A stretch of DNA of 64,000 nt, from IMG/VR virus record IMGVR_UViG_3300048060_000061, positions 39,197 through 103,196 of that record; one strand, given 5' to 3'. Made by a program: the position numbers and the translations under genes. The notes beneath the pieces are model-generated. The model was not told the DNA's origin and did no database searches. It saw nothing but the letters and a program-made list of their open reading frames with translations. This stretch comes from a virus. Its lineage: Duplodnaviria > Caudoviricetes. Shown piece by piece: positions 49,952-50,145 of the stretch. Position 1 is the first letter of the stretch; every line of letters begins with the position of its first letter.

Positions 49952-50090
49952 AATCGCCCGTAGGTTCGCGGGTGACTGCGCTGTCGAGAACCTTCTTGCA
50001 TTGGCTCGGTTGACAGCGAAACTTTCACTTAATATTAAGCGTGTGGGTGGACCGAGTAGTGGTTCGAATCTACTTCTTCAACCGACGATA
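49952..50090 (+). ncRNA. Scaffold B, half-repeat and single guide (natural sgRNA-like unit)
   Basis: Covarying copy of scaffold A ending GCGTGTGGGTGGACCG (50039-50054), followed by unique sequence. Confidence 0.7.
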
Positions 50091-50109
50091 ATCCCCCTCC
50101 TTTGTTGTA

Positions 50110-50145
50110 CGGGCGGCTCAGGGACCTGGCAACCTGAGCCGCCCG
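50110..50145. terminator. GC-rich hairpin between convergent units
   Basis: CGGGCGGCTCAGG...CCTGAGCCGCCCG. Confidence 0.65.

What the first reader, a model, noticed from the sequence alone, without database searches (positions are those of the whole stretch)
49952..50145. Stand-alone natural single-guide unit with compensatory base changes and a tRNA-like guide
Seen: a diverged copy of scaffold A with double-sided changes that preserve pairing (TCGCCCGT/GCGGGTGA vs TCGCCGGC/GCCGGTGA; CGCTGTC/GACAGCG vs GACAGGC/GTCTGTC). It runs directly into GCGTGTGGGTGGACCG, the repeat 3' half. Then come AGTAGTGGTTCGAATCTACTTCTTCAACC and a strong hairpin. AGTGG-TTCGAAT-CTACT is a tRNA T-arm, and it matches none of the five tRNAs in this window. 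Inference: a fixed sgRNA targeting a tRNA 3' half, a common att site; both terminal guides in the window would then point at tRNA sequence.
Basis: partly seen in the sequence, partly recalled or inferred. Interest (0 to 1): 0.82.

Follow-up and report, generated by a model that had tools for sequence, protein, structure and literature searches.

The report
Orphan guide RNA for phage TnpB
This is a spare, stand-alone guide-RNA gene for a small RNA-guided DNA cutter (TnpB) carried by a 103-kb phage; it is well supported as a structured RNA, belongs to a kind already described, and the claim that it aims at a tRNA gene could not be confirmed.

Summary
Window 49952-50054 is one of five copies of a ~105-nt structured RNA scaffold in a complete 103,196-bp phage genome. 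A model built from phage and relative copies scores it 111 bits (E 1.8e-38). Across 12 copies, 98.4% of cells pair and 11 pairs change on both sides.

The scaffold is the omegaRNA of a 424-aa phage TnpB with an intact RuvC triad, encoded 73 kb away. Three copies have a decayed 3' tail and head CRISPR arrays. The 29-nt repeat resembles the scaffold's last hairpin plus tail. This matches the published TnpB-to-Cas12 intermediates called TranC.

Two copies keep the tail GGACCG and run straight into unique sequence: one sits at the tnpB 3' end, the other is this unit. Its 33-nt guide is followed by a decayed repeat start and a strong hairpin. I read it as a stand-alone, trans-acting single guide.

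The guide does contain a T-arm-like motif, which is rare by chance. No tRNA or other target was found in 185,579 species genomes, JGI metagenomes, IMG/VR or GenBank phages. The tRNA model does not match it. The phage has no integrase, so the att-site idea is unsupported.

First-stage notes of this scan had already flagged the system on this genome.

The parts
49042..49070 (+). Promoter-like site (TCGGCA-17-TATGAT with TG) upstream of scaffold A. It is the only sigma-70-like site on the + strand that could drive A, the array, ORF142 and unit B.
   Evidence: This is a consensus match only. No promoter-like site lies directly upstream of B.
49077..49184 (+). Scaffold copy A, tracr-type. Stem-1 loop is GGTCC and the tail has decayed to GGGCGAATATT.
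   Evidence: 101 bits.
49198..49476 (+). CRISPR array of five 29-nt repeats with four spacers of 33-35 nt.
49503..49931 (+). ORF of 142 aa between the array and unit B. No Pfam family matches it.
49952..50054 (+). Scaffold copy B, sg-type. It is complete and 92% identical to the tnpB-linked copy C.
   Evidence: 92% over 104 nt; 111 bits, E 1.8e-38.
49954..49975 (+). Stem 1 (8 bp) with loop AGGTTC. Loop bases 49963-49967 (GGTTC) are the proposed pseudoknot partner of the tail.
49979..50018 (+). Stem 2 (CGCTGTC/GACAGCG) enclosing the invariant AACC...GGTT and GC-NNNN-GC helices.
   Evidence: 7 of 7 pairs change on both sides and pairing is 100%.
50023..50047 (+). Terminal hairpin (CTTTCAC...GTGTGGG), the counterpart of the repeat hairpin CCCCAC/GTGGGG.
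   Evidence: Read from the sequence. Inference; covariation was not tested.
50048..50054 (+). Tail TGGACCG, identical to the 3' end of the repeat. GGACC (50049-50053) pairs with the stem-1 loop.
50055..50087 (+). 33-nt guide or spacer. Bases 50058-50074 form the T-arm-like motif.
50088..50116 (+). Decayed terminal repeat. It starts ATAATCCCC like the repeats of relatives; the rest has diverged (11 of 29 matches to the phage's own repeat).
   Evidence: the motif occurs 12 times as background in 206 kb of both strands. Here it lies exactly 33 nt after the tail.
50110..50145 (.). Strong GC-rich hairpin between unit B and the convergent pentapeptide-repeat gene (50189-50797, minus strand). Likely a two-way transcription stop, but no U-run follows on either strand.

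Best explanation
Window 49952-50087 is a stand-alone guide-RNA gene, an orphan omegaRNA or natural single guide, for the phage's own 424-aa TnpB nuclease. That nuclease is encoded at genome 16059-17333 on the minus strand, 73 kb away and outside the window.

Shown:
- The RNA has the full family scaffold: stem 1, stem 2 and the terminal hairpin.
- It keeps the 7-nt tail, and GGACC in that tail can pair with the stem-1 loop GGUUC as a pseudoknot.
- The three array-leading copies in this phage have lost that tail. Their pseudoknot partner can only come from the repeat tail of each array-derived crRNA. They therefore look like tracrRNAs, while this unit and the tnpB-linked copy carry scaffold and guide in one molecule.

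Inferred:
- The unit arose by duplication of the tnpB-linked omegaRNA, or by recombination between a scaffold and a repeat. That left one 33-nt spacer and a decaying terminal repeat.
- It is transcribed by read-through from the promoter upstream of scaffold A. TnpB trims it at the 5' end, as ISDra2 TnpB does for its own omegaRNA (PMC10278001).
- It is loaded in trans onto TnpB and directs cleavage of DNA that matches about the first 16-20 nt of the guide next to the enzyme's target-adjacent motif (TAM).
- The likeliest targets are rival phages or other mobile elements, as for virus-borne mini-arrays (PMC11656645).
- The guide sequence looks derived from a tRNA T-arm, but its target is unknown.
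For: 1. The effector is present and looks active.
- Pfam finds HTH_OrfB_IS605, OrfB_IS605 and the Cas12f1-like TNB domain.
- The best natural solved relative is ISDra2 TnpB, E 4.6e-39.
- D214, E319 and D401 align with ISDra2 D191, E278 and D361.

2. The scaffold is this TnpB's omegaRNA.
- Copy C starts 11 nt before the tnpB stop codon.
- In relatives with 54-82% identical TnpB, the same scaffold follows tnpB.

3. It is a structured RNA, as shown by strong covariation in stems 1 and 2.

4. The loop-tail pseudoknot covaries.
- GGTTC goes with GGACC, GAACC, GGGCC or GAACT.
- GGTCC goes with GGACC.
- On contig L032, two tandem scaffold-array pairs each match their own repeats: AAGTCT with AGACT, and GGTTC with GAACC.
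- On L010, GCCC goes with GGGC.

5. Unit B keeps every element, whereas copies A, D and E lost the tail.

6. The guide is spacer-sized and is bounded by a repeat-start motif at +33.

7. The guide has little structure of its own, -2.7 to -4.7 kcal/mol and no better than shuffles. It would be free to pair with a target.

8. There is no self-target in the phage.

9. Precedents exist.
- Stand-alone omegaRNAs work in trans with compatible effectors (PMC10691335).
- A half repeat fused to a tracrRNA can re-create an omegaRNA (PMC10691335).
- TranC is described as the TnpB-to-Cas12 intermediate created by splitting the omegaRNA into tracrRNA and crRNA (PMC13565253; preprint 10.64898/2026.03.27.714800). 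I recall from the original Jin et al. 2025 paper, which I could not read here, that TranC nucleases use both kinds of guide.
Against: - No target was found for the guide in any collection searched.
- There is no promoter-like site of its own, and the downstream hairpin lacks a U-run.
- It is the only sg-type copy not attached to tnpB among 18 full-scoring copies seen in this phage and in 72 kb of related contigs, so conservation of a stand-alone unit cannot be shown.
- The decayed repeat after the guide is also what a dying mini-array would look like.
- B differs from C only at unpaired or terminal-hairpin positions, too few changes to show selection.
- 33 nt is longer than the 16-20 nt that TnpB enzymes use.
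Confidence: 0.6

Rival explanations
1. Dead remnant. Unit B is what is left of a scaffold-plus-array module after recombination deleted the array. It is transcribed at most incidentally and guides nothing.
For: - The repeat after the 33-nt segment has decayed to 11 of 29 matches.
- No target was found.
- It has no promoter of its own.
- No equivalent stand-alone unit occurs in relatives.
Against: - Every pair of stems 1 and 2 and the pseudoknot partners are intact.
- The tail is better preserved than in the three array-leading copies.
- It scores 111 bits, third of the five copies.
- The unit is identical in contigs from sediment metagenomes of separate studies: run X1 covers 49993-50225 with no difference, and run X3 covers 49976-50191 with one difference that lies downstream of 50115, outside the scaffold and guide. 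These may all be the same phage strain.
Confidence: 0.2
2. Flank-as-guide relic with homing. As in canonical IS605-type elements, the 'guide' is simply the DNA next to the right end of an inserted element. Here that DNA would be the 3' part of a phage tRNA gene that the element split. The RNA would cut sibling phages that still carry the intact tRNA allele, and repair would copy the module in, as T4 SegB does for the T4 tRNA region (PMC13565253).
For: - The T-arm motif is very unlikely by chance. About 0.5 such motifs are expected in the whole genome, which is roughly 1e-4 for a 30-nt stretch.
- The best GenBank phage hit of the guide is the T-arm of an unannotated tRNA-like element in Lactococcus phage PLgW-1, 20 of 21 nt, though E is about 1.
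- On L014 the omegaRNA guide starts 29 nt upstream of a tRNA-Ser gene.
- On L010 the omegaRNA flank holds a 63-nt piece of a prohead-protease-like gene that is intact on L034.
Against: - No 5' half anywhere in the genome completes a tRNA with this flank.
- The tRNA model does not see it, even in truncated mode.
- The genome has no Y1 TnpA and no recognisable left end.
- The repeat-like motif at exactly spacer distance fits an acquired spacer better than a flank.
- No intact allele was found in metagenomes.
Confidence: 0.12
3. [quoted passage not shown]
For: - The truncated repeat plus spacer lying outside the array, and the T-arm-like sequence, resemble the delocalized crRNAs that home to sites near tRNA genes (PMC11656645).
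- A second nuclease locus in the window ends in a copy of a tRNA-Leu fragment.
Against: - No integrase, resolvase, Y1 transposase or rve (TnsB-like) gene is present.
- The nuclease has an intact RuvC triad, unlike Cas12k.
- The genome ends in direct terminal repeats, as a free phage genome does.
- No tRNA gene in 185,579 species genomes carries the 19-nt core.
Confidence: 0.05

Closest known systems
TnpB omegaRNA (reRNA) of IS200/IS605 elements, including stand-alone omegaRNAs that act in trans (ISDra2 TnpB, PDB 8BF8/8H1J; PMC8612924, PMC10097598, PMC10691335)
   Same: - A ~100-nt structured scaffold runs directly into the guide at its 3' end, and a pseudoknot involves the guide-adjacent tail.
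- The paralogous copy overlaps the 3' end of tnpB.
- The effector is a close TnpB homologue with HTH, RuvC and zinc-ribbon parts.
- Orphan copies elsewhere in the same genome are a described phenomenon.
   Different: - No TnpA and no transposon ends are present, and the carrier is a phage.
- The guide is spacer-sized (33 nt) and followed by a repeat remnant, so it looks derived from a CRISPR unit rather than from an insertion flank.
- The same scaffold family also heads CRISPR arrays.
TranC, the transposon-CRISPR intermediates (Jin et al. 2025 Cell, as cited in 10.64898/2026.03.27.714800 and PMC13565253; LaTranC PDB 9JFO)
   Same: - A TnpB-sized nuclease lies next to short CRISPR arrays, with no adaptation genes.
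- The repeat is homologous to the 3' end of the omegaRNA scaffold.
- Single-guide and split tracr-plus-crRNA forms coexist.
- One phage-borne example has been reported (CauTranC9).
   Different: - Repeats here are 29 nt. The preprint gives 32-38 nt for the four clades it characterised.
- The protein is nearer to ISDra2 TnpB (E 4.6e-39) than to LaTranC (E 1.9e-23).
- The five scaffold copies are spread over the genome.
- The pairing I could show between scaffold and crRNA is a 5-bp loop-tail pseudoknot, not a long anti-repeat duplex.
- I could not place this lineage among the numbered TranC clades.
Re-fusion of a half repeat with the tracrRNA to re-create an omegaRNA (RpoE-associated TnpBs, PMC10691335)
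   Same: Scaffold plus the 3' half of the repeat plus the guide sit in one transcript, keeping the repeat's 3' end as the scaffold-guide boundary.
   Different: Those TnpBs are catalytically dead regulators. This one keeps its D-E-D triad and still has arrays.
Delocalized crRNA of type V-K and I-F CRISPR-associated transposons (PMC11656645)
   Same: A partial repeat plus one spacer lies outside the array. In those systems the spacer points at tRNA-adjacent homing sites.
   Different: - No Tn7-like genes were found. The rve search was negative, while the TniQ search was uninformative because its control did not ring.
- The nuclease is active.
- The scaffold is fused in cis.
- No tRNA match was found.
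Virus-borne CRISPR mini-arrays used in inter-virus conflict (PMC11656645)
   Same: One-spacer units sit in a virus genome without adaptation genes, and the presumed role is against related viruses.
   Different: Those borrow the host's Cas proteins and copy host repeats. This phage brings its own effector and scaffold. The repeats look like type I-E, but no CasE gene is present.

Membership tests
TnpB omegaRNA (OMEGA guide RNA) | Conserved structured scaffold shared with RNAs encoded at the 3' end of tnpB genes | tested here: met
   - 92% identity to copy C, which overlaps the tnpB stop codon.
- The covariance model scores the unit at 111 bits.
- The stems covary.
TnpB omegaRNA (OMEGA guide RNA) | Guide lies immediately 3' of the scaffold, after a tail that forms a pseudoknot | tested here: met
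   Tail GGACC and loop GGTTC are both present. This pairing covaries across 17 scaffolds, including the L032 scaffold a and the L010 tnpB-downstream scaffold.
TnpB omegaRNA (OMEGA guide RNA) | Encoded within or next to its tnpB gene, inside IS200/IS605 ends, with TnpA in cis or in trans | tested here: not met
   The unit lies 73 kb from tnpB. There is no Y1 TnpA or serine recombinase in the complete genome. This fits the described stand-alone omegaRNA subclass instead.
TnpB omegaRNA (OMEGA guide RNA) | Binds TnpB and directs TAM-dependent DNA cleavage | not testable with these tools
   This needs RNA-protein pull-down and a cleavage assay.
TranC / minimal type V CRISPR | TnpB-like effector with intact RuvC catalytic residues | tested here: met
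   D214, E319 and D401 align with ISDra2 D191, E278 and D361.
TranC / minimal type V CRISPR | CRISPR array whose repeat derives from the 3' end of the omegaRNA scaffold | tested here: met
   The 3' 16 nt of the repeat equal the scaffold end with one mismatch. Arrays follow the scaffolds in this phage and in relatives.
TranC / minimal type V CRISPR | Both the single-guide and the split-guide form are used by the same enzyme | not testable with these tools
   Both forms are encoded. Their use is an inference.
tRNA gene or tRNA fragment (as source or target of the guide) | Recognised by tRNA models | tested here: not met
   ARAGORN finds nothing there. Rfam RF00005 finds nothing at E up to 10, including in truncated mode.
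tRNA gene or tRNA fragment (as source or target of the guide) | T-arm: 5-bp stem with a G53-C61 pair and a TTCRANN loop | tested here: met
   The motif lies at 50058-50074. It is one of eight in the genome against 0.52 expected.
tRNA gene or tRNA fragment (as source or target of the guide) | An identifiable matching tRNA gene | tested here: not met
   - The 19-mer gives one chance hit, in a coding region, among 185,579 species genomes.
- The 18-mer gives five chance hits in JGI metagenomes; none is in a tRNA and none extends.
- The phage's own tRNAs are at least 6 mismatches in 20 away.
- Only exact matches were searched in the large collections.
CRISPR-associated transposon delocalized crRNA | Tn7-like transposition genes (TnsB, TnsC, TniQ) and a nuclease-dead effector | tested here: not met
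   There is no rve-family gene and the effector triad is intact. The TniQ search was uninformative because its control did not ring.
Type I-E CRISPR (repeat look-alike) | Cas6e and Cascade genes, or a host I-E system with the same repeat | tested here: inconclusive
   The phage has no CasE family gene and no Cas1. The host is unknown, so borrowing of a host I-E system for spacer uptake or processing cannot be excluded.

The most novel reading that the evidence does not exclude
The phage hard-wires one guide of its TnpB nuclease against the T-arm region of a particular tRNA gene carried by rival phages or by the host. That would make it an RNA-guided counterpart of the T4 SegB endonuclease, which cuts tRNA gene regions during co-infection. 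tRNA-derived guides would then be a recurring feature of this lineage. Hints in that direction are the tRNA-Leu fragment at the end of the second nuclease's array, a tRNA-5'-like spacer on L011, and omegaRNAs placed beside tRNA genes. The scaffold and the crRNAs would be held together mainly by a 5-bp pseudoknot rather than a long anti-repeat duplex.
Probability: 0.15. Interest if true: 0.7.

Novelty: new member of a known kind. Interest (0 to 1): 0.42.

Why it matters
One phage genome and its relatives show several stages of the proposed TnpB-to-Cas12 transition side by side:
- an omegaRNA attached to tnpB;
- the same scaffold with a lost tail acting as leader or tracrRNA for arrays;
- a scaffold re-fused to a half repeat with a single spacer, placed far from the gene.

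The loop-tail covariation gives a concrete, testable rule for which scaffold works with which repeat. That is useful for anyone building guide RNAs for very small nucleases of this lineage (424 aa here).

The unit itself adds little beyond published stand-alone omegaRNAs and TranC systems unless its tRNA-like guide turns out to have a real tRNA-gene target.

Tried and rejected
Target searches for the guide, all negative:
- 23-mer in IMG/VR: none.
- 1.1-kb region against GenBank phages: none.
- 33-nt guide against GenBank phages at E up to 10: only chance-level partial hits. The best is a T-arm of an unannotated tRNA-like element in Lactococcus garvieae phages.
- 19-mer in 185,579 species genomes: one coding-region hit in a Fervidobacterium MAG.
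- 18-mer in JGI metagenomes: five hits in three distinct sequences; none is a tRNA and none extends past 18 nt.

Protospacer hunts for other guides, all negative:
- All 61 spacers and the fixed guides against every sequence held gave only self hits, plus the L010/L034 flank match.
- Two 20-mers from this phage's arrays and the tRNA-like L011 spacer gave nothing in IMG/VR.
- The TAM therefore remains unknown.

Other searches that led nowhere:
- The scaffold core pattern in IMG/VR gave nine chance hits and no relatives.
- The single-protein locus search in IMG/VR gave none.
- Rfam has no family for the scaffold.
- Relatives cannot be drawn for a virus record.
- Scan notes by sequence or by relatives held nothing relevant.

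Expression:
- No RNA holder was listed among public runs.
- The four DNA holders are sediment-metagenome contigs. They show the unit but cannot show transcripts.
- One run has a contig joint from 49477 to 49952. I left it uninterpreted because both ends lie in repeated 31-mers.

Ideas considered and dropped:
- Split-tRNA test: joining each of 123 acceptor-compatible sites in the genome to the flank gave no tRNA by ARAGORN.
- An extended hairpin between tail and guide folds no better than shuffles, z = -0.49.
- A minus-strand ORF through the guide, suggested by a 15-nt match to an L014 gene, is chance. The L014 gene's real homologue lies at genome 14799-15038, and the local frame has no start codon.
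- CRISPR-associated transposon reading: see the membership test.
- Complex prediction and structure prediction were not used, because they would not change the reading.

Full report
**What is there.** The window is the right-hand 64 kb of a complete 103,196-bp virus record with direct terminal repeats (window coordinate = genome coordinate - 39196). I read 49952-50145 as:
- a scaffold at 49952-50054;
- a 33-nt unique segment at 50055-50087;
- a repeat-start-like stretch beginning at 50088;
- a 13-14-bp GC-rich hairpin at 50110-50145.

The last 16 nt of the scaffold match the 3' half of the 29-nt repeat of the neighbouring five-repeat array (49198-49476) with one mismatch. Six matches were found against 0.17 expected.

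- The phage has five copies, not two. A covariance model built from 12 copies finds exactly five in the genome, at 100-121 bits. The unit under study scores 111 bits, E 1.8e-38.
- On the 12-copy alignment the stems are 98.4% paired. Eleven pairs change on both sides, including 7 of 7 in stem 2. No shuffle out of 500 reaches this, and slid controls fall to 26-41% pairing.
- This is a structured RNA. Rfam has no family for it.

**What the scaffold belongs to.**
- One copy (C, genome 16072-15962, minus strand) begins 11 nt before the stop codon of a 424-aa ORF.
- That protein carries the HTH_OrfB_IS605, OrfB_IS605 and Cas12f1-like TNB domains. Its best natural match among solved structures is ISDra2 TnpB (E 4.6e-39), with LaTranC more distant (E 1.9e-23).
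- Its D214, E319 and D401 align with the ISDra2 catalytic D191, E278 and D361.
- The scaffold is therefore this TnpB's omegaRNA.
- The complete genome has no Y1 TnpA, serine recombinase, tyrosine integrase, rve transposase, Cas1 or CasE.

**Two kinds of copy.**
- Copies A, D and E have a decayed tail (GGG-C/T-GAAT...) followed by a short conserved leader and then arrays of 5, 3 and 8 repeats.
- Copies C and B keep the tail TGGACCG and run straight into unique sequence.
- In C that sequence is 17 nt followed by two full repeats. In B it is 33 nt followed by ATAATCCCC.
- That 9-mer is how repeats begin in related phages. The broader repeat-start motif occurs only 12 times as background in 206 kb of both strands.
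- B is therefore best described as a one-spacer unit whose first repeat is fused to the scaffold and whose last repeat has decayed.

**Relatives.**
- TnpB homologues at 54-82% identity are numerous in metagenomes.
- The contigs I could fetch are all phage-like, with terminase, capsid, prohead protease, DnaB and methylase genes. All carry the same scaffold and repeat family.
- Some have a plain omegaRNA after tnpB plus an array upstream (L010, L011, L014). Others have arrays after tnpB (L015, L031-L034).
- Among the 13 strong copies in 72 kb of relatives, every sg-type copy sits at the tnpB 3' end. B is the only one found standing alone.

**How scaffold and repeat fit together.** The stem-1 loop is complementary to the tail that precedes every guide, and the two covary:
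- GGTTC with GGACC, GAACC, GGGCC or GAACT;
- GGTCC with GGACC;
- GCCC with GGGC on L010;
- on L032, two tandem scaffold-array modules with AAGTCT/AGACT and GGTTC/GAACC respectively.

The first-stage notes of this scan suggested this pseudoknot (e1-5886757), and I tested it here. It explains the two kinds of copy. Tail-less scaffolds must receive their partner from a crRNA, so they behave as tracrRNAs. B and C carry their partner in cis, so they behave as single guides.

This is the 'functional RNA splitting' picture published for TranC systems (cited in 10.64898/2026.03.27.714800 and PMC13565253). Stand-alone omegaRNAs that act in trans, and the re-fusion of a half repeat with a tracrRNA, are also on record (PMC10691335).

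**The guide.**
- The T-arm resemblance is not a trick of the eye. The strict motif occurs eight times in the genome against 0.52 in shuffles. The other seven lie in tRNA or tRNA-like genes.
- The best GenBank phage hit of the guide is the T-arm of an unannotated tRNA-like element, 20 of 21 nt, though E is about 1.
- Everything beyond that failed. The tRNA model gives no match, even in truncated mode. No 5' half in the genome completes a cloverleaf. No near match exists in the phage's own tRNAs. No tRNA gene carries the 18-19-nt core in 185,579 species genomes or in JGI metagenomes.
- Those large searches were exact-match only and the host is unknown, so a mismatched or unsampled target remains possible.
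- With no integrase and an intact nuclease, I set aside the att-site reading.

**Expression.**
- No promoter-like site lies directly upstream. The nearest on the + strand is at 49042-49070, ahead of scaffold A.
- B would therefore be the last element of an A, array, ORF142, B transcript that ends at the hairpin. That hairpin lacks a U-run.
- TnpB is known to trim its own omegaRNA from longer transcripts (PMC10278001).
- No RNA data set holds the region. DNA contigs from sediment metagenomes of separate studies carry the scaffold end and guide without a difference: run X1 over 49993-50225, and run X3 over 49976-50115.

**Verdict.**
- The structure claim is confirmed and extended.
- The 'single-guide unit' reading is supported by homology, covariation and anatomy.
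- The tRNA-target and att-site part is not supported.
- The system is a phage member of the TnpB-CRISPR intermediates already described. The unit is an orphan guide RNA of a known kind, with an unidentified target.

Noticed in passing
window 13906-15653 (minus strand): A second, unrelated small nuclease of 459 aa. Pfam finds only the Cas12f1-like TNB domain, there is no PDB sequence hit, and it shows no similarity to the 424-aa TnpB. It has its own four-spacer array with a different repeat. After the last, half-decayed repeat comes a 37-nt exact copy of the phage's own tRNA-Leu(TAA), anticodon arm to T-loop. The scaffold model R1 finds nothing there.
   Followed up: partly
genome 17398-17926, minus strand (outside the window, upstream of tnpB): Fifth scaffold copy (E, A-like) heading an eight-repeat array in which one 33-nt spacer occurs twice.
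   Followed up: partly
L032:3452-4030: Two scaffold-array modules in tandem after one tnpB. Each scaffold's stem-1 loop is matched to the tail of its own repeats (AAGTCT/AGACT and GGTTC/GAACC). This is the clearest covariation for the pseudoknot.
   Followed up: yes
L011:850-884: A spacer that begins like a tRNA 5' end (acceptor plus D-arm motif GGGTTAGCTCAGTTG) and then diverges. Its 20-mer has no match in IMG/VR.
   Followed up: partly
L014:3827-4034: The tnpB-linked omegaRNA ends 29 nt upstream of a tRNA-Ser(TGA) gene, so these elements sit beside phage tRNA genes in at least one relative.
   Followed up: partly
L010:10260-10330 versus L034:4449-4511: The sequence after the L010 omegaRNA tail holds a 63-nt piece (79% identity, 21 nt exact) of a prohead-protease-like gene (Peptidase_S78_2) that is intact on L034. 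This is a possible insertion or homing footprint.
   Followed up: partly
window 49227-49259: The first spacer of array A is an almost perfect 10-bp inverted repeat around a 7-nt centre.
   Followed up: no
window 13620-13700 (minus strand); genome 19933-20089 (minus strand): tRNA-like sequences with good T-arms that ARAGORN does not call. The two at genome 19933-20089 score 17-22 bits with the Rfam tRNA model, below its cut-off. The phage also has tRNA-Ile(TAT) at genome 25974-26047.
   Followed up: partly
L035:365-430 (Lactococcus phage PLgW-1, record 28957-29022): An unannotated short tRNA-like element with a pairing acceptor stem and a perfect T-arm but too little sequence between them for both D and anticodon arms.
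   Followed up: no
window 22698-23169, 52814-53262 and 63581-64000: Long near-identical direct repeats (up to 300 nt at 99%) and repeated promoter-like intergenic blocks. There are also several pentapeptide-repeat genes built from 15-nt units (for example 50189-50797 and 50823-51452).
   Followed up: no
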